From an uncultured archaeon (lineage in GTDB: Archaea; Asgardarchaeota; Lokiarchaeia; Sigyniarchaeales; SOKP01), in assembly GCA_964486045.1 (NCBI GenBank), contig CAZALK010000006.1:96001-160000 (forward strand): a stretch of DNA of 64,000 bases, given 5' to 3'. Shown here one piece after another: positions 27,314 through 37,117 of this stretch. The position numbers and the translations under genes were made by a program. Each line of letters opens with the position of its first letter. Position 1 is the first letter of the stretch. Under the pieces are notes generated by a model that did no database searches, was not told the origin of the DNA, and worked only from the letters and a program-made list of their open reading frames with translations.

Positions 27314-27444
27314 TAATAATAATAATAATAATAAATTTTCAAACTATAAAGGAAAATGACTGAATCAAAATATCTTGAGGGAAAACTCATGAAAGCAATT
27401 GTATATACAAAATACGGACCACCGGATGTCCTTCAGCTTAAAGA
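27300..27444 (+). repeat. 145-bp identical inverted repeat, copy A, containing (TAA)8
   Basis: Exact reverse complement of 31906-32050 by manual comparison. Confidence 0.85.
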
Positions 27445-28384
27445 TGTAGATAAGCCTATTCCCCAGGATAATGAAATACTCATAAAAATACATGCAACAT
27501 CAGTAACCATGGGGGATTGTGAGATGCGAGGTCTCAAATTCTCTGGGATGTTAAAGTACCTCATGCGACTCGGACTTGGTCTCAGAGGACCAAAAAAAAA
27601 ATACTCTATACCAGGACAGGAGTTAGCCGGGGAAATTGAGGCAGTTGGTGGTGAAGTAAATCTGTTTAAGGAAGGTGACTCAGTTTATGCTTCGACCGGT
27701 TTTCATTTTGGTGCTTATGCTGAATATGTAAGTCTACCTGAAGATGCAGAGATAGCAATAAAACCGACCAATATGACCTATGAAGACGCTGCCGTTATTC
27801 CTGTTGGGGGAATGGAGGCATTACATTATATTAGAAAAGCAAATATTCAGAAAGGGCAAACAATACTTATCAGTGGAGCTTCTGGAAGTATAGGTACTGC
27901 TGCGATACAGCTTGCTAAGTATTATGGAGCTGATGTTACCGCAGTTGGTAATCCCACCAGTTTAGAGGTTATGAAATCTTTAGGAGCTGATTATGTAGTT
28001 GATTACACTAAAGAGGATTTTACCCAAAGCGGGGAGACCTATGATGTTATTTTTGATGTGATTGGTAAGTGCTCGTTTACAAATTGTTTAAGTTCGTTAA
28101 ATGAAGGAGGAGTTTTTCTTAATGCTAATCCTCAGCTGACATTGATTAATCATCAAAAAAGGGCTTCAAAGGGAAGCGGAATAAAATTGATAAGTAGGAA
28201 CATGGACAAACCAATGGAAAGGATTGAACAATTGTATAAGCTCAAAGAGCTTATTGAAGCGGAAAAGATAAAATCAGTAGTGGATAAGCGCTATCCACTG
28301 AAACAAATTGTCGAGGCTCATAGCTATGTCGAAAAGGGGCAGAAAACAGGAAATGTGTCTATCTCTTTGGAGGAATATTTATGA
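27356..28384 (+). CDS. MDR-family NAD(P)-dependent oxidoreductase, paralog 3
   Basis: Same motifs (GASGSIG). Confidence 0.9.
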   Translation: MTESKYLEGKLMKAIVYTKYGPPDVLQLKDVDKPIPQDNEILIKIHATSVTMGDCEMRGLKFSGMLKYLMRLGLGLRGPKKKYSIPGQELAGEIEAVGGEVNLFKEGDSVYASTGFHFGAYAEYVSLPEDAEIAIKPTNMTYEDAAVIPVGGMEALHYIRKANIQKGQTILISGASGSIGTAAIQLAKYYGADVTAVGNPTSLEVMKSLGADYVVDYTKEDFTQSGETYDVIFDVIGKCSFTNCLSSLNEGGVFLNANPQLTLINHQKRASKGSGIKLISRNMDKPMERIEQLYKLKELIEAEKIKSVVDKRYPLKQIVEAHSYVEKGQKTGNVSISLEEYL

Positions 28385-29346
28385 AAGCGATTGTGTATAC
28401 AGAATACGGGGGGCCGGAGGTTCTCCATCTCAAGGAGATAGATAAACCTACACCTAATGATAATGAAGTTCTGATAAAAATTCATGCGTCAACCTTAAAT
28501 GCTGCTGATTTGGATTTTCTGAGAGGTAAGATTCAATTCTCTCGAAAACCAAGATATGAGATACTCGGATCTGACATAGCAGGGGTTATTGAAGAGATTG
28601 GCGGAAATGTAAAGGAGTTTCAGCTTGGTGATGAGATATTCTTAGACTCATCCCGGTGCGGTTTTAGCGCTTTTGCTGAGTATGTATGTATTCCTGAAAA
28701 TGCATTAAGACTGAAACCATCCAGCATAACATTCGAAGAAGCAGCAACCTTACCTCAAGCGGGAATCCTCGCCTTGCAGGGTCTTCGCGATAAAAGACAG
28801 ATTCAACCAGGAAAAAAGGTTTTGATAAATGGTGCAGGTGGTGGTGTGGGTACCTTTGCAGTGCAGATTGCCAAATTATTTGGGGCTGAAGTGACTGGTG
28901 TAGACAGCCCGGAAAAATTAGAAATAGTGCGCTCGATTGGTGCTGACCACGTTATTGATTACACGAAGGAGGACTTTACTAAAAATGAGCAGCGTTATGA
29001 CATGATACTTGATGTTGTGGTATCTCATTCTATTTCAGATTATAAGAGCGTTCTGAATCCCAGCGGGATTCTTCGCATGGTTGGAGGTTCTATGAGTAAA
29101 GTTTTCAAAGCTGCATTACTCGGACCATTGATTTCAAGGAATAAAAAAATGACTATTGTAGTGTGGAGACCAAATAAAAAAGAAGATATGCTTTTTTTGA
29201 CAGAACTTCTTGAATCCGGCAAAATAGTTCCTGTTATAGATAAACGTTATCCATTAAGTGAAGTAGCTGAAGCTTTCCGGTATCTTGAAGAAGGACACCA
29301 CAAAGGAAAAATTGTAATTACAATGGAACAAAATAGCAAAACCTAG
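28381..29346 (+). CDS. MDR-family NAD(P)-dependent oxidoreductase, paralog 4
   Basis: Same motifs (GAGGGVG); ATGA overlap with paralog 3. Confidence 0.9.
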   Translation: MKAIVYTEYGGPEVLHLKEIDKPTPNDNEVLIKIHASTLNAADLDFLRGKIQFSRKPRYEILGSDIAGVIEEIGGNVKEFQLGDEIFLDSSRCGFSAFAEYVCIPENALRLKPSSITFEEAATLPQAGILALQGLRDKRQIQPGKKVLINGAGGGVGTFAVQIAKLFGAEVTGVDSPEKLEIVRSIGADHVIDYTKEDFTKNEQRYDMILDVVVSHSISDYKSVLNPSGILRMVGGSMSKVFKAALLGPLISRNKKMTIVVWRPNKKEDMLFLTELLESGKIVPVIDKRYPLSEVAEAFRYLEEGHHKGKIVITMEQNSKT

Positions 29347-29449
29347 CAAAACTCTATGCTCGCTATTCCTGTTGAAGTGTTATAGATTCTGTAATTTAGA
29401 TACTTCAAAATTGATGTATTTCATAGGTACTATATAACTATAAAAATAA

Positions 29450-29854
29450 TTATTGTAGGTTAATGTTTACCTTAAAATTTACGTCAGTTATCCATGAAAT
29501 GGCTGGAATACTCTCTGTACCTGCTGTAAACTCAAACGATCCTAGATTTTGAGACTTCATCACATCAATGATACGGTCTTTTGCTTTCTCTAATAACTTT
29601 TTCAAGAATTTTTCAAGTTTAGACGATTCTTCTTCCACGTTTTCTTCACTTAGAAGATCTTCCCTTTGGTATTCAAAAGTAGCTACTGTACCTACCCCTG
29701 CGATTTTACACGTTATTTCGAGATTTACAACGAAATTTCTTGTTATTGAGTCTAAGATATCCTTGATAGCTCTTAAAAGAGCGCTTTTTATCTCATCAAA
29801 TCCCTTTTTAGACTTTGCTTTCTCTTTAATCATTTCTTTTATTTTTTTTGACAT
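29450..29854 (-). CDS. Hypothetical protein
   Basis: 134-aa Lys/Glu-rich ORF with a GAGG-like RBS upstream. Confidence 0.55.
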   Translation of the reverse strand: MSKKIKEMIKEKAKSKKGFDEIKSALLRAIKDILDSITRNFVVNLEITCKIAGVGTVATFEYQREDLLSEENVEEESSKLEKFLKKLLEKAKDRIIDVMKSQNLGSFEFTAGTESIPAISWITDVNFKVNINLQ

Positions 29855-29976
29855 AAAAACTCTATACCTCTTAACTTTTATAATTATTTGGATTTAAACT
29901 TGCTATTGAATAATGTTCTTAGCTTTTGATGCATAAAAAATAAATTAGATTAAGATTATTATCTAAAAATATTAAT

Positions 29977-30996
29977 TTAAATTTTATAGAGATGGTCTAA
30001 AGTTATTACTACATGTCCCTTTTTTTCTCCTGTTTCAACATATCTGTGAGCTTCGGCAGTCTGTTCCAGTGGATAGCGTCTATCTATAACCGATTTTATC
30101 TTTCCTCCCTCAATAAGCCCCTTGAGGAAGAGTAAATCTTCAGTTTTTGGGTATGTTGCCCCGAATATCACTTTCTTGCTGCTCTTCTTTGAAATTTTTC
30201 TTCCTCGTAACTTCTGTGATGTCCCAGGGTTAGCTATAAGATAATGTCCGTTTTGTCTTAGCGAATTTATACTACCTGAAAATGAACTCTTGCTTATGAT
30301 GTCAAGAATAAAATCATAGGTTTCACCGCTCTTAGTGAAATCTTCTTGTGTGTAATCAATGACATGGTCAGCACCAATCGAGCGCAACATGTCCAATTTC
30401 TCTGTGCTTTCTACACCAGTCACTTCCGTCCCAAAGTACTTGGCAAGCTGCACCGCAAATGTACCTATAGTTCCACCCGCACCATTAATCAGAACCTTTT
30501 GTCCGCTCTGAATATTTCCTTTTCTAAGAAAATTCAATGCTTCAAGTCCCCCAACAGGAACGGTGGCTGCTTCCTCATGGGTCATATTGGTCGGTTTTAT
30601 TGCCATCTGACTATTGTTCGACTTATCTCCTTGTTCAGGTTCTTCAGGTAGACATATGTACTCAGCACAAGTACCCATACCAACAAAACCAGTAGCAGCA
30701 AAAACTTGGTCACCTTCTTTAAATAGTTTTATATCTTTGCCCACTGATTCTATTTCCCCGGATAACTCCATACCTAGTATTGTGATTCTCTTTGGTTTTC
30801 TGAGTCCGATATATAGTCGCATAAGCAGACGAAACTTCAGTGGCAATTTGAGATTTCGTTGTTCACAGTCCCCTGAAGTTACTGTTGTCGCATATATCCT
30901 TATCAATACTTCATTGTCTTTGGGAGTAGGTTTAACCACCTCTGCGAGCTGAAGAACTTCCGGATCCCCGTATTTTGTCCACACAATCGCTTTCAT
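29977..30996 (-). CDS. MDR-family NAD(P)-dependent oxidoreductase, paralog 5
   Basis: Same motifs (GAGGTIG). Confidence 0.9.
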   Translation of the reverse strand: MKAIVWTKYGDPEVLQLAEVVKPTPKDNEVLIRIYATTVTSGDCEQRNLKLPLKFRLLMRLYIGLRKPKRITILGMELSGEIESVGKDIKLFKEGDQVFAATGFVGMGTCAEYICLPEEPEQGDKSNNSQMAIKPTNMTHEEAATVPVGGLEALNFLRKGNIQSGQKVLINGAGGTIGTFAVQLAKYFGTEVTGVESTEKLDMLRSIGADHVIDYTQEDFTKSGETYDFILDIISKSSFSGSINSLRQNGHYLIANPGTSQKLRGRKISKKSSKKVIFGATYPKTEDLLFLKGLIEGGKIKSVIDRRYPLEQTAEAHRYVETGEKKGHVVITLDHLYKI

Positions 30997-31037
30997 GAAT
31001 ATTCCTATAAGGGTTGTCTTATTTCGAGGAAAATCAT

Positions 31038-31994
31038 CTAATTCTGGGCCACAGTTATAGCTACATTTCCCTTTTTGTGTCCTTTGTCTACGTATGCATG
31101 AGCTTCGACAATCTGCTCAAAAGTATAGGTTCTATCTATGACCGATTTTAACTTCCCAGCTTCAAGGAGCTCTTTGAGGAAAAGTAGATCATCAACCGTT
31201 TCCTTTCCTATTGATTTAAACACGGAAAGAAAGACTCCATTCTCCTTTAATGCACCCTTAATTCTTGAAGACGAAATTTTCCCTGCAGCATTAAAAATGA
31301 TATCATAGAGCTCTCCACTTTCTGTAAAATCCTCTTTAGTGTAGTCAATTACTTTATCGGCTCCTAGAGATTTCACCAATTCTAAGTTCGTGGTACTGCA
31401 GACCCCGGTAACTTCTGCTCCATAGTACTTAGCAAGTTGTACAGCAAATGTACCTACGCTACCAGAAGCTCCATGGATAAGAACTTTTTGTCCTTTCTGG
31501 ATATTTTCCTTTCTAAGATGACGCAATGCTGTAATTCCTCCATTAACAACAGCAGCAGCCTCCCCATATGTTATATTGGCTGGTTTTATTACAATCAATC
31601 CGTCTTCAGGTAAGCATTTGTACTCGGCATAAGCACCGAATTTCGTCGAGAAAGTAGATGCAAGAACCTGATCGCCTTTCTTAAATAATGTTACATCTTT
31701 ACCCACTGCTTCAATTTCCCCAGCTAACTCCATTCCAAGTATCGTTCTCTTTGGTTTTCTAAAACCTACAACAAAATGCATCATTATAGAATAAAATTTG
31801 GAATCTGGGTGTTTGCCTCTCCGAAGTATTGTGTCACCTACGTGTACTGTTGTTGCATATATTTTTACCAGTACTTCATTTTCCTTGGGAGTTGGTTTTT
31901 CTACCTCTTTAAGCTGAAGGACATCCGGTGGTCCGTATTTTGTATATACAATTGCTTTCATGAGTTTTCCCTCAAGATATTTTGATTCAGTCAT
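31038..31994 (-). CDS. MDR-family NAD(P)-dependent oxidoreductase, paralog 6
   Basis: Same motifs (GASGSVG); N-terminus identical to paralog 3. Confidence 0.9.
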
Positions 31995-32189: not shown

Positions 32190-33122
32190 TTATCCTCCTA
32201 TTTGAGCCTTTACTCCGCAAGATTCAACAATTTCCTTAAGTTTTATCATATGGTCCTCACTAGGTGGTTCAACATCTGTAAGGTTATAGTCCATTCCAAT
32301 ACGACTGTATGTTTGAGTACCAAATTTATGGTAAGGCAAAAGATCTATTCTTTTAAGATTATCACCTAAATTCAAAGCAAATCTTGCTGTAGCTGTTATG
32401 TTGTCATCAGTATCATTAAAACCCGGTATTATGGGGATGCGTATTATCATAGGATTTATCGTAGAAATCTTTTTAGCATTCTCTAAAATAAGTTCATTAG
32501 AAACACCAGTTAATTCTTTATGGACAATGGGATCCATATGTTTAATATCTATAAACACGAGGTCCACATACTTAAGGATATTTTCCATATTATTCCATTT
32601 TACATAACCGCATGTTTCTATTGCTGTATGTATGTAAATCTGCTTACATCTTTTAAGGAATGCAGAGACAAACTCGGGTTGCATGGTAGGTTCACCGCCA
32701 CCAACAGTGACACCACCATTTGATCGTCTATAAAATGGGCTATCCTTATTAACTTCTTGGAATAGTTCCTCAAACGTTATATGATAACCAATAAGTTTCA
32801 ATGCCTGATTTGGGCAGGATTCAAGACATTTCCCGCAATATGTACAGAGTTTTCTGTCAATAATTATCTTATCTTCACCAGAAATTGTAATACCATGAAT
32901 AGGGCATACATCAACACAGCTACCGCACTTTTTACAATTAAATTCATTATGCATAATTTCAGGTTTTGATTTCTGCGTTTGAGGAGAAGAACACCACAAG
33001 CACTTTAAGGGACATCCCTTCATGTAAACCAGAGTCCGAATTCCGGGACCATCATGGATGGCAAACCTTTGTAAGTCATAAACGAAACCCTTACGTATAG
33101 GTTCATTTTTTGGCTGGACCAT
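32190..33122 (-). CDS. Glycyl-radical enzyme activating protein (radical SAM with 2x[4Fe-4S] insert)
   Basis: HDGPGIRT...GCPLKCLWC; CKKCGSCVDVCP and CTYCGKCLESCP; GGGEP. Confidence 0.93.
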   Translation of the reverse strand: MVQPKNEPIRKGFVYDLQRFAIHDGPGIRTLVYMKGCPLKCLWCSSPQTQKSKPEIMHNEFNCKKCGSCVDVCPIHGITISGEDKIIIDRKLCTYCGKCLESCPNQALKLIGYHITFEELFQEVNKDSPFYRRSNGGVTVGGGEPTMQPEFVSAFLKRCKQIYIHTAIETCGYVKWNNMENILKYVDLVFIDIKHMDPIVHKELTGVSNELILENAKKISTINPMIIRIPIIPGFNDTDDNITATARFALNLGDNLKRIDLLPYHKFGTQTYSRIGMDYNLTDVEPPSEDHMIKLKEIVESCGVKAQIGG

Positions 33123-33564
33123 GCTGTTTTACCTCATAATGTAGATAGGATTGTGATGTAAATAAAAAATTAGATAAATCTTTGAGTTTGTTTTATTAAA
33201 GTACTATTTCTAACTTAAATTTTTTTTATTTGAGATAAAGATCTGAAAGATTCCTATAAGATTTATTTCAGATACTGCAATTCTTTGTTTTATTTTATAG
33301 AAATCAATTATTTTTTCAATGCATTTTAACTAAATAGGAAGCATTTTCTTTAATTAATATCCGTCTTTTTGTTTCTTCTATTCCAATCCAATTTCTAAGA
33401 TTAATTCTTTTGTAGACTAAATCTTTACTTCGGAGTGTTCTTTAAATTATTTATTTTCAATTAATGTTCTATTATTTTATTAATAGAGATTTTAATCAGT
33501 GAAAGGAATTTGCGAATAATATAAAAAAAAACAAAGAAATACTAAACTAACCTTTTCATTTCTT

Positions 33565-36003
33565 CTACAGTCGATGTTCCGTTCGAGCGATGATACTGTC
33601 TTGGACTTGCTTATGCAGATCCACAAACCGGGCATTATATCCTGCCACCTTGACGACTAAATCTTTAAACTTTTCTGGATTTTTTTGAGCGGCTTTTAAA
33701 GTCTCAACAGAAACGACATTAATCTGAATATGATCGACTTTTTGATCTACAAAAGCCCTGATAAGGGCTGCTAACCTTTGGATTCCATTATCATTTTCAA
33801 AAACAATTGGATCTAGCTTCATATTCAATGATTGACCAAGTGAAAGTTCTGCGTTATTGATTTTTCCGACAGACTTGAGAACTGATGTGGGACCATTTAT
33901 ATCACTCCCCATTGTTGGAGAGACTCCGTCTGAAACAGGAGCTCCAGAATTTCTTCCTGAAGGTAGTGCCCCCACCATTAAACCGTGAGGTACATACGAT
34001 GACATTGGTACTTGATAGGCATATTTTGTTCCCCCATATGTTGTCTTGTATTTCATCGCTTCCTTTGCGACAAGGTGACTTACCCAGACAACCTGTTCAT
34101 CAGCATAATCATCATCATTGCCAAACTTAGGGGCTTCCAAGCACATTTTATGGATTTCTTCAAACCCTTCAAAATTACTTTCTAGTGCCTGACACAACTG
34201 ATCCATTGTAATCTTTTTTTCATCATACACCAGCTTTTTAATTGCAGCAAGAGAATTGCCCGCATCGACTGTTCCTAATGTAGTAACCGCACCGAGATTG
34301 TATCGCGCACCACCTTCTTCTCTACATTTGCCATTTTCAATGCAATCTTCGGTTAAGGCTGATGTGAAAATGGTTGGTTGAAGCATTTGCTCACCGAGGT
34401 TAGAGGCGACTGCACCTCTTTTCATCTCAAAAACAACTTGCTTACGAAATGCATCTCTTACCTCTTCAAATGATTTAAATTGTTTGGGATCACCTGTCTC
34501 TAATCCTCTTCTTTTACCGAAAATTCTACTCCAACCATTAGTCATCACGAGTTCCGTGGTAAGAGCCAGTAGCTGTGATTGGTTAACTGCCCATCCTCCT
34601 TCCATCGTATGCAAACTGGGTTCATGACAACCCACGCAACCTCCGAATTCCCGCGCCATCTCTAATGTAACCGGTCGTCCTCCAACGGTGGCTCCCCGTC
34701 CGAGAAGATTATTTACCAGAACATCATGATTGATATATTGGGGGTTTCCGCTCCCCACCGAAGTCAGTTGACATGCTTTTATTAGCAGATCATCCGGTGT
34801 TTTACTGTGGACTAAAAGACCGATAGCAGGTTCAACCATCCCAGGAGTATGCATTATTGCCTCGATGAACATGTAAGACAATTCGTTGGTGGCATCTGTT
34901 CCATCGGCTTTTAAACCACCAATATCAACATGATGACCAGGTGTATATTGCGAAATAAATCCTCCTTTCGTCCAAAGACCAAACGACTGAGAAAATCGCA
35001 TAAACCAACAATCAATCAACTCTTGGGCTTGTTCCTTTGTTATTCTTCCCTCTGTTATATCCTTTTCATAGAATGGGTATAAATATTGATCGGCTCTTCC
35101 TAGGCTTATTCCGCCGTGAAATGATAACTCCCATCCGAGCATCATATGAATGAACCAGACTGATTGTAGCGCTTGGTAGAATGAATTTGCTGGATTTGCT
35201 GGAACATTTTCACAGATATCACCAATTTTTAACAGTTCAGCTTTTCTCTTGCCATCCTCTTCCACTTCTGCTAGGGATTTTGCCTTGATCGCAAATCTTT
35301 TCCCGATCTCAGCAGCTGTTTCTAATGCTAGGATAACACCCTGAAGGAAGGGAGCCTTTTTAACCTCTTCCGAATCCGTTAGGTTTAATCTGTCCAATCT
35401 TTCCTCAGCATCTCGTTTTATCCCCAGAAGACCTTTTTTCAGAACTTTTGGGTAGTTAACAACATAATGGTCAACTTTCGGTGATGGAATCGCATATTTT
35501 ATTCCCAATTTCTTTGCCTCTGGAGGTATTGTTGGCATAAAATGATGTTCTTTCCAATAAGGATAGATCTCCTCCCTTAAAATTTTCTTATCTTCATCAT
35601 CAATAAGGAATGGATCGATCGTTCTAGTACTTAGAGAATCTAATTCCTTTTCCAGCCCAAATGCTGTATAAGGAATTGAATAAAAGGGGATTTCAGTACC
35701 CCGTGGCTCAGAAAATAACCACCCCACGAAAAGCTCATCAGGATAAATATTTATCGGTACTCCTTTAACAATTGCGCCAAATGATTTAGCCCGTCGAGTG
35801 ACCAATGGTTCTCCTTCAGTTTCCTTCCTACTTTGGGTTCGATTACGTGCAATATCGATAACTACCTTATTCCGAATGTTCAAATATCGCTGTCTTAGTA
35901 TTTCAACCCTTGGTGATGGTTTTATCGTAAAATGCCTGGCCCACATCGCTGTTGGATTAGCAATGGGTTCTTTAACAATTTGTTCCTTTATTATCTGGAC
36001 CAT
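33565..36003 (-). CDS. Glycyl radical enzyme (PFL2/dehydratase-like, specificity unknown)
   Basis: Cys loop VGCHEP; Gly-radical motif VKVAGYN; PKFGNDDDYAD; adjacent activase. Confidence 0.9.
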   Translation of the reverse strand: MVQIIKEQIVKEPIANPTAMWARHFTIKPSPRVEILRQRYLNIRNKVVIDIARNRTQSRKETEGEPLVTRRAKSFGAIVKGVPINIYPDELFVGWLFSEPRGTEIPFYSIPYTAFGLEKELDSLSTRTIDPFLIDDEDKKILREEIYPYWKEHHFMPTIPPEAKKLGIKYAIPSPKVDHYVVNYPKVLKKGLLGIKRDAEERLDRLNLTDSEEVKKAPFLQGVILALETAAEIGKRFAIKAKSLAEVEEDGKRKAELLKIGDICENVPANPANSFYQALQSVWFIHMMLGWELSFHGGISLGRADQYLYPFYEKDITEGRITKEQAQELIDCWFMRFSQSFGLWTKGGFISQYTPGHHVDIGGLKADGTDATNELSYMFIEAIMHTPGMVEPAIGLLVHSKTPDDLLIKACQLTSVGSGNPQYINHDVLVNNLLGRGATVGGRPVTLEMAREFGGCVGCHEPSLHTMEGGWAVNQSQLLALTTELVMTNGWSRIFGKRRGLETGDPKQFKSFEEVRDAFRKQVVFEMKRGAVASNLGEQMLQPTIFTSALTEDCIENGKCREEGGARYNLGAVTTLGTVDAGNSLAAIKKLVYDEKKITMDQLCQALESNFEGFEEIHKMCLEAPKFGNDDDYADEQVVWVSHLVAKEAMKYKTTYGGTKYAYQVPMSSYVPHGLMVGALPSGRNSGAPVSDGVSPTMGSDINGPTSVLKSVGKINNAELSLGQSLNMKLDPIVFENDNGIQRLAALIRAFVDQKVDHIQINVVSVETLKAAQKNPEKFKDLVVKVAGYNARFVDLHKQVQDSIIARTEHRL

Positions 36004-36267
36004 ATTCTTTCCTCATTGTGTAGATAGGATGATAGATTTAAATAAAATTAGGTAAATTTTTGATTCTTTAATAATAAAATTACATTACTTACTTAAATCT
36101 TTTTCATATGATTAAAGATTTCAAATGTGATTAAAGTCTCATTACAAACATTAGAATAATAAAATGAAAAAAGATTTTCCCTACGGAAGGTCCACCAATA
36201 ATATTATTCTTGTTGAGATCTTTAAATTTATAAATGTCTAATCCTACTAGGTGTTTGCTTTTATTAG

Positions 36268-36888
36268 GTGGGGCAAATTTTTATGAGTACAATTCAAGAT
36301 TTTGTGAAGGAAGCAAGCGAGAAATTATCCAAAACGGGAAAGAAAACCGGTTTAATGGTAAGAATTGGAGAAAAAGAGTCATACATCGTTCCTATATTCG
36401 AAACATTCGTCGTGAACCACGCAATAATAAATTTTGAAATCACTGGAGAAATTATAGCAAAATATTTTAGGAGATTAGGACAACAAGAAAGTGGTGGAGG
36501 GAGTAGTGGTCCAAAAGTTTCCGATAGACTAATAAAATATAGGAATAGGTCGGTGTATGTTGCATTGGATCCAGATAAGGAATCAGCCCGTATTAAAAGA
36601 GAAAATGATTCCCCTGAGCCCAAGGAAACGCGGCAAAAACTGAAAGAATCACATTATATGGCAGCAGAATGTATTTTCAAACCAAGTTTAGTAGGGAAAG
36701 ACAGTGAAGCATTAGATGGAGCGATATTGAGTGTGTTAAGCCTGTGTGAAGTTAATTTTAGGCGCGGATTATGTAATAATATCGTGGTATATGGACCAGC
36801 AGTATTCCGTGGGCTAAGTGAGAGATTACAATTAGAAATTCAAAAGAAATTTCAAGGTAAAATAGAAGTTAACGTCTCTAGTCTTTAA
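36268..36888 (+). CDS. Divergent, truncated actin-related protein (actin subdomains 3-4 only; likely start 36283)
   Basis: TGLMVRIGEKESYIVPIFE...HAI, YVALD and AECIFKPSLVG...CEVNFRRGLCNNIVVYG...GLSERLQ.EI align to the actin C-terminal half. Confidence 0.75.
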   Translation: MGQIFMSTIQDFVKEASEKLSKTGKKTGLMVRIGEKESYIVPIFETFVVNHAIINFEITGEIIAKYFRRLGQQESGGGSSGPKVSDRLIKYRNRSVYVALDPDKESARIKRENDSPEPKETRQKLKESHYMAAECIFKPSLVGKDSEALDGAILSVLSLCEVNFRRGLCNNIVVYGPAVFRGLSERLQLEIQKKFQGKIEVNVSSL

Positions 36889-37117
36889 TTATTTTTTTCC
36901 CATACTCCAACAATTTTTTAGGATTACTCTTTTCTTTAAGGATATTCAAGATAAGATGTATATTCGTTCGAAATATTGCAAAGCATAATATATCAATGAC
37001 TTTAAATAAATTCTCGAAATCTACTTATCTAAGAAATAATTATAAAAAATTAATATACTCCTACAAAATACAGATTAGGTTTATTTTAATTGAAGAAAAG
37101 AATTTAGTAAGAAAAAA

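What the first reader, a model, noticed from the sequence alone, without database searches (positions are those of the whole stretch)
36268..36888. Half-actin: stand-alone actin subdomain 3/4 protein with degenerate nucleotide-binding motifs
Seen: an intact ORF of about 200 aa that aligns collinearly with the actin C-terminal half. TGIVMDSGDGVTHTVPIYE corresponds to TGLMVRIGEKESYIVPIFE, YVALDFEQE to YVALDPDKE, and PEALFQPSFLG...CDVDIRKDLYANTVLSGG to AECIFKPSLVG...CEVNFRRGLCNNIVVYGP. The N-terminal lobe and C-terminal return are absent, and the phosphate-2 DSG and adenosine SGG motifs are altered. Established: Asgard archaea encode actins and divergent ARPs. Inference: a non-ATPase half-actin could act as a filament cap, decoy or adaptor, or it is a decaying fragment.
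Basis: partly seen in the sequence, partly recalled or inferred. Interest (0 to 1): 0.7.

Follow-up and report, generated by a model that had tools for sequence, protein, structure and literature searches.

The report
Mobile half-actin of Lokiarchaeia
Some Asgard archaea carry a real, selected and apparently laterally spreading gene for just half of an actin; it cannot bind ATP and has kept the face that docks onto a filament's slow-growing end while losing the face needed to extend it, so it is a candidate filament cap, though binding is untested.

Summary
Confirmed. The ORF (start ATG 36283, 201 aa) is an actin lacking subdomains 1 and 2: Pfam Actin E 1.6e-19, actin residues ~129-332, AlphaFold pLDDT 89, TM 0.84 to actin. 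It is not a local truncation: about 70 same-length relatives form one clade, dN/dS is 0.26, no full-length member or separate N-half was found, and the genome keeps five full-length actins/ARPs. The ATP site is gone. Selection is uneven: subdomain 3, the hydrophobic plug and the lateral helix are constrained (dN/dS 0.07-0.27), while the two subdomain-4 segments that form the pointed-end contact are relaxed or neutral (0.63-0.67 and ~1.0). That pattern resembles the pointed-end cap Arp11. The gene is rare (2 of 400 Asgard species genomes), sits at many sites with empty sites elsewhere, and is far less diverged at silent sites than collinear neighbours, suggesting lateral spread. Best reading: ATP-independent pointed-end cap or template for Lokiactin (0.4); binding is inferred only. 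Two members were deposited as 'putative actin-related protein'; no paper describing the architecture was found. The scan noted it only on this same DNA.

The parts
36283..36888 (+). Half-actin gene, 201 aa, hinge helix plus subdomains 3 and 4 (actin ~129-332)
36200..36282 (+). Conserved upstream block that travels with the gene: TATA-like TTTATAAA at 36227-36234 after an A-run, and a purine-rich stretch at 36266-36273. Read as its own promoter and 5' UTR (inference).
   Evidence: Conserved across non-syntenic loci; absent from L079, L082, L089
36283..36333 (+). N-terminal helix, residues 1-17: actin hinge helix 137-145 (Q137 to E10) extended by a new helical turn that replaces a subdomain-1 strand
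   Evidence: helix 3-17 in the model; dN/dS 0.28; mapping
36334..36441 (+). Subdomain 3, first part (residues 18-53): altered phosphate-2 loop and near-invariant W-loop (actin 165-173)
   Evidence: dN/dS 0.16
36490..36552 (+). Subdomain-4 tip (residues 70-90, actin 197-216): Gly/Ser-rich, indel-prone, pointed-face residues T202/E205 and nucleotide contacts K213/E214 not kept
   Evidence: dN/dS 0.63-0.67; low pLDDT at 71-80
36598..36645 (+). Subdomain-4 hairpin (residues 106-121, actin 235-251): the P243-D244-G245 turn is lost; evolving neutrally
   Evidence: dN/dS 0.96 and 1.05, p=0.84-0.86 against 1; coil in the model
36682..36711 (+). Hydrophobic plug (residues 134-143, actin 264-273), Lokiactin-like, G268 and the acid at 270 kept
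   Evidence: dN/dS 0.11
36712..36885 (+). Subdomain 3, second part (residues 144-201): barbed-face segment 283-294 with V287, R290, R291 invariant; adenosine loop shortened; ends at the strand before the hinge loop
   Evidence: dN/dS 0.24
36889..36945 (+). T-rich downstream block shared, to varying length, by many non-syntenic copies; possible terminator (inference)

Best explanation
An ATP-independent actin regulator made from the large domain of an actin/ARP. Shown: the gene is under purifying selection, folds as actin subdomains 3+4 in a prediction, lacks the ATP site, the D-loop and subdomain 1, and keeps selection everywhere except the two pointed-face segments of subdomain 4. Inferred: its barbed face (W-loop, 283-294) docks on the D-loop and subdomain 4 of a terminal Lokiactin subunit, helped by the plug and the 181-196 helix across the strand. 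Nothing can add beyond it, so it caps the pointed end. The same geometry could seed barbed-end growth or hold a monomer by its pointed face. It is an accessory gene passed between Lokiarchaeia species with its own promoter; the advantage (less filament turnover, shorter or stabler filaments) is a guess.
For: Contacts taken from Chou & Pollard (bioRxiv 10.1101/309534) and mapped on 64 members. Barbed-face partners: R290 1.00, E167 0.92, F169 1.00, L142 1.00, I165 0.98, D286 to E 0.94. Cross-strand partners: G268 0.97, acid at 270 1.00, H173 0.98. Pointed-face partners T202, E205, D244 are not kept (majority residue 0.64, 0.62, 0.22; 12-17% gaps). Codon models: the two pointed-face segments give dN/dS 0.67 and 0.96; all eight other segments 0.11-0.28; same result on gap-free columns of 13 close sequences. 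Arp11 shows the same logic, conserved barbed face and altered pointed face (PMC2174220). Lokiactin is present in the genome.
Against: All of subdomain 3 is conserved, including surfaces outside the interface, so fold stability or another partner could explain it; no burial analysis was possible. The freed segments are also surface loops near the lost nucleotide cleft and could drift for that reason alone. Some barbed-face contacts are changed or lost: Y143 to S and T148 to K (M44 pocket), D288 to N, and the C-terminus with F375. The same barbed surface is part of the profilin site (own knowledge). The older subfamily keeps P243-D244-G245. Expression is not shown.
Confidence: 0.4

Rival explanations
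1. Decoy for proteins that bind actin's barbed face (profilin, gelsolin-like proteins, or a viral or competitor effector); it titrates them without polymerising.
For: The W-loop and 284-290 are the subdomain-3 half of the profilin site (own knowledge) and are near-invariant. Patchy, laterally spreading genes are typical of conflict (inference).
Against: The subdomain-1 half of these sites (residues 341-375, 113) is missing. The plug and the 181-196 helix, which are filament contacts, are the most constrained segments. No dN/dS clearly above 1. No viral copy found.
Confidence: 0.2
2. Subunit or adaptor acting with a divergent Asgard ARP, or a self-assembling protein, rather than with Lokiactin filaments.
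For: Trees place the clade as sister to the C10b-type divergent Lokiarchaeia ARP (SH-aLRT 97-99), with shared changes such as Y143 to S and D154 to N. The faces exposed by loss of subdomain 1 and the new N-terminal helix (dN/dS 0.28) could form a new interface.
Against: No partner gene travels with it. Its sequence is closest to Lokiactin (48-52% for subfamily B against 31% to C10b). A Lokiactin-sister tree is not rejected (p-AU 0.17).
Confidence: 0.2
3. Side-binding or barbed-end poison: it joins a filament through cross-strand contacts and weakens or terminates it.
For: Plug and lateral helix have the lowest dN/dS (0.07-0.14); cross-strand contacts are about 87% between subdomains 3 and 4.
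Against: Adding at a barbed end needs the D-loop and subdomain-4 tip, which are absent or neutral; cross-strand contacts bury only 490 square angstrom against 1180 along the strand.
Confidence: 0.12
4. A slowly decaying fragment or selfish passenger with no current role.
For: Rare; dN/dS higher than most neighbours; one copy has a premature stop (L099), one an ATA start (L092), one a 28-residue deletion (P0063); subdomain 4 erodes along the tree.
Against: dN/dS 0.26, p=7e-79; same ends kept across members down to about 40% identity; conserved upstream block; no transposase or repeats travelling with it.
Confidence: 0.08

Closest known systems
Lokiactin (Asgard actin; PMC9834061)
   Same: Collinear over Lokiactin 144-336; 33% identity for this protein, 48% for subfamily B; W-loop, plug and 283-294 segment Lokiactin-like.
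   Different: No subdomains 1 or 2, no ATP site, no D-loop; rare and mobile, while Lokiactin is in all Asgard lineages.
Divergent Asgard ARPs (C10b type, about 380 aa)
   Same: Sister group in two quick trees; altered nucleotide motifs.
   Different: Those ARPs are full length and widespread in the genus; only 26-31% identical; this genome has both.
Arp11 (ACTR10), pointed-end cap of the dynactin Arp1 filament (PMC2174220)
   Same: Actin-fold protein with a conserved barbed face and a disabled pointed face; proposed working analogy.
   Different: Arp11 keeps the four-subdomain fold and works in a complex with p62, p25, p27; no special kinship was tested or is claimed.
'Putative actin-related protein' AKC94956.1 / UniRef A0A0F6PX50 and KKK45327.1
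   Same: Members of this family (207 and 202 aa, 76-77% identical), so the sequences have been public and labelled actin-related.
   Different: No searchable paper cites them or describes a subdomain-3/4-only family. Spang et al. 2015, which I believe deposited them (memory), was not available to read.
Arcadin-2 and Asgard profilins/gelsolins
   Same: Small archaeal regulators of actin assembly (PMC5173319, PMC12993045).
   Different: They are not built from the actin fold and bind the barbed-face groove.

Membership tests
Actin family (PF00022) | Sequence homology above the Pfam cut-off | tested here: met
   70.3 bits vs 27, E 1.6e-19
Actin family (PF00022) | Actin fold in the region present | tested here: met
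   pLDDT 88.8, pTM 0.83; Foldseek TM 0.84 by query, 0.47-0.50 by target. The alignment included trimmed actins; with family members only the model failed (pLDDT 43).
Polymerising actins (Lokiactin, eukaryotic actin) | Four subdomains with a two-lobed nucleotide cleft | tested here: not met
   Covers actin ~129-332 only; no separate N-half in the genome at E<1
Polymerising actins (Lokiactin, eukaryotic actin) | Phosphate-1, phosphate-2 and adenosine motifs, Q137, H161 | tested here: not met
   Phosphate-1 absent; D154, G158, H161, R183 changed; one adenosine-loop Gly deleted; Q137 to E
Polymerising actins (Lokiactin, eukaryotic actin) | Both longitudinal faces (D-loop and subdomain 4; subdomain 3) | tested here: not met
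   D-loop absent, subdomain-4 face relaxed or neutral; only the subdomain-3 face kept
Asgard ARPs (C10b type) | Groups with that ARP clade | tested here: inconclusive
   Sister, SH-aLRT 97-99 in quick trees; long branch; Lokiactin-sister alternative not rejected, p-AU 0.17
Asgard ARPs (C10b type) | Full-length actin fold | tested here: not met
   Members are 188-208 aa; no longer member above 35% identity to the query
Pointed-end caps (Arp11-like, functional class) | Conserved barbed face, disabled pointed face | tested here: met
   (sequence level only)
Pointed-end caps (Arp11-like, functional class) | Binds and blocks filament pointed ends | not testable with these tools
   Needs biochemistry
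Insertion sequence or virus cargo | Transposase, terminal repeats or viral contigs linked to the gene | tested here: not met
   No shared neighbour across loci, ragged cassette ends, no viral hits

The most novel reading that the evidence does not exclude
A natural single-lobe actin acts as an ATP-free pointed-end cap or nucleation template for Lokiactin, a prokaryotic invention of the Arp11/Arp2-3 trick by deleting half the fold, and spreads sideways between archaeal species as a one-gene cytoskeletal regulator.
Probability: 0.35. Interest if true: 0.8.

Novelty: new variant of a known kind. Interest (0 to 1): 0.62.

Why it matters
The Asgard actin regulators in the papers read here (profilins, gelsolins) are not built from the actin fold, and I found no described Asgard pointed-end regulator or role for any Asgard ARP. 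A 22-kDa actin-derived cap would show regulators being made from actin itself in archaea, parallel to how eukaryotic ARPs arose. It would also show that actin's large domain is a viable stand-alone unit, and give a small reagent testable on rabbit actin. It is lineage-restricted, so it informs on evolvability rather than on the eukaryotic ancestor.

Tried and rejected
AlphaFold with family members only gave an unusable model. Split gene: no stand-alone N-half in the genome. Frameshift or assembly break: orthologs are stop-bounded 2-35 codons upstream and end at the same place. Antisense or overlapping gene as the source of conservation: every other frame has 4-28 stops in all orthologs. Viral origin: none in viral contigs. 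Genome-contig scan found nothing. Rfam: no match. The sigma-70 scan is at chance and does not cover archaeal promoters. NCBIfam 'syringactin' hit on P0081 is 30 bits against a cut-off of 300, ignored. Conserved operon partner: none. Literature: eight searches found no description; Spang 2015 not held.

Full report
Observation. The window holds an open frame at 36268-36888 (+) between a divergent glycyl-radical enzyme gene and folD. Orthologs start at ATG 36283, giving 201 aa. Pfam Actin matches at E 1.6e-19 and phmmer maps residues 14-189 to actin 141-320. Against this genome's Lokiactin it is 33% identical over residues 144-336. So it comprises the hinge helix and subdomains 3 and 4. An AlphaFold model built with a deep alignment has pLDDT 88.8 and matches actin at TM 0.84 over the query but about 0.48 over the target, as expected for half a molecule. 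That alignment contained trimmed actins, so the model shows compatibility with the fold, not independent proof of stability. The organism is a Lokiarchaeia-type Asgard archaeon, judged from the source names of close orthologs.

It is a family, not an accident. A search returned 71 proteins, about 65 of them 185-208 aa and 59-88% identical. A second subfamily (B, six proteins, 39-44% identical to this one) has the same ends. Orthologous loci are closed by an in-frame stop 2-35 codons upstream. Searches for longer proteins and an exhaustive profile search found only ordinary actins and ARPs at 35% identity or less. The genome has five full-length actins/ARPs and no free N-terminal half. A codon model on 23 sequences gives dN/dS 0.26, p=7e-79 against neutrality. 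A few damaged copies exist.

Origin. All half-actins fall on one branch, in the order subfamily B, two intermediates (P0086, P0067), then subfamily A, which includes this gene (SH-aLRT 97, 88; quick trees, midpoint root). Subfamily B is 48-52% identical to Lokiactins and keeps subdomain 4 intact; subfamily A has eroded it. The sister group is a divergent full-length Lokiarchaeia ARP (C10b type; 97-99), but a Lokiactin-sister tree is not rejected (p-AU 0.17). A single old truncation of a Lokiactin-like gene fits both.

No ATP site. The phosphate-1 loop, H73 and K336 lie outside the protein. D154, G158, H161 and R183 are changed, K213/E214 vary, Q137 is Glu, and one glycine of the adenosine loop is deleted in every member. 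Loss of nucleotide binding follows from established actin structure; it was not assayed.

Which surfaces are kept. Using filament contacts from Chou & Pollard (bioRxiv 10.1101/309534), the barbed-face partners R290, E167, F169, L142, I165 and an acid at 286 are 92-100% conserved in 64 members, as are the cross-strand partners G268, the acid at 270 and H173. The pointed-face partners T202, E205 and D244 are not kept. By segment, dN/dS is 0.11-0.28 everywhere except residues 70-90 (0.67) and 106-121 (0.96). On gap-free columns of 13 close sequences these are 0.63 (p=0.08) and 1.05 (p=0.86), against 0.07-0.29 elsewhere. With the D-loop absent, the protein has one working longitudinal face. Arp11 was predicted to be a pointed-end cap on the same argument (PMC2174220). 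Limits: subdomain 3 is conserved as a whole, the free segments are surface loops beside the lost cleft, Y143, T148, D288 and F375 contacts are changed or missing, and the same face is part of the profilin site (own knowledge). The cap reading is therefore the best single mechanism at about 0.4, with decoy and adaptor rivals at about 0.2 each.

Distribution and mobility. Among 400 Asgard species genomes, only this one and G022 (subfamily B) carry it, though it recurs in metagenomes; the source labels that name a habitat say marine sediment. Neighbours differ from locus to locus, but gene order is generally fluid in these genomes, so that alone is weak. Stronger: flanking genes are adjacent without it in this genome for L093 and L095, and the subfamily-B site between a methyltransferase and a GNAT gene lacks it in the 19 other species fetched, with the two genes still neighbours in 15. 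Silent divergence from this copy is 0.27-0.70 in every subfamily-A locus, while collinear neighbours give 1.5-2.1 (L072), 1.7-1.8 (L086), 1.1-2.2 (L074) and 2.3 (L095). GC3 (0.28) is near the genome's (0.23) and no overlapping frame is open, so a hidden constraint on silent sites is unlikely. Lateral spread is the simplest reading; it rests on best-hit neighbours, not on a species tree. An upstream block with a TATA-like box travels with most copies. No transposase, terminal repeat or viral copy was found. Frequent intra-Asgard transfer of eukaryotic-signature genes has been reported (bioRxiv 10.1101/2025.07.24.666526).

What is known. Two members are in public databases as 'putative actin-related protein' (AKC94956.1, KKK45327.1). 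No searchable paper cites them, and the Asgard actin papers read describe only Lokiactin and ARPs without mention of truncated forms. Spang et al. 2015 could not be read, so a passing mention there is not excluded.

Verdict. Observation confirmed; interpretation partly supported. A new architectural variant of the actin family, selected and probably mobile, with a testable but unproven role at filament ends. Interest 0.62.

Noticed in passing
window 36200-36260 and G000 C8:140854-140923: The upstream block matches (about 80% over 60-70 nt, E 1e-9 to 1e-11) an intergenic stretch between two convergent genes on another contig. Both flanks of the half-actin read on the opposite strand like short peptide remnants; origin unexplained. 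This weakens the promoter reading somewhat.
   Followed up: partly
L068:3008-9455: Here the half-actin, a serpin and an FMN reductase sit inside an ESCRT cluster between Snf7 and Vps4; in G000 the cluster lacks the insert.
   Followed up: partly
L070:6001-12159: A half-actin lies 4.4 kb from a full-length second Lokiactin paralog; not seen at other loci.
   Followed up: no
G000 C1:345094-346236 and C24:48541-49665: The genome has two Lokiactin-like genes, 82% identical.
   Followed up: no
L099:1565-2146: A divergent family member with an in-frame stop near codon 33; a 202-aa protein is in the cluster of the matching 151-aa fragment.
   Followed up: partly
window 27356-31994: Four similar zinc-type alcohol dehydrogenase/quinone reductase-like genes in two convergent pairs; two share an identical N-terminal extension.
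   Followed up: no
window 32190-36003: Glycyl-radical enzyme and its activase, below every specific NCBIfam cut-off, so of unassigned substrate.
   Followed up: partly
L075:5966-8050 and L122-L140: An N6-methyltransferase (Eco57I-like) gene is conserved in 48 of 54 genomes of the genus, unusual for a restriction-modification type gene.
   Followed up: no
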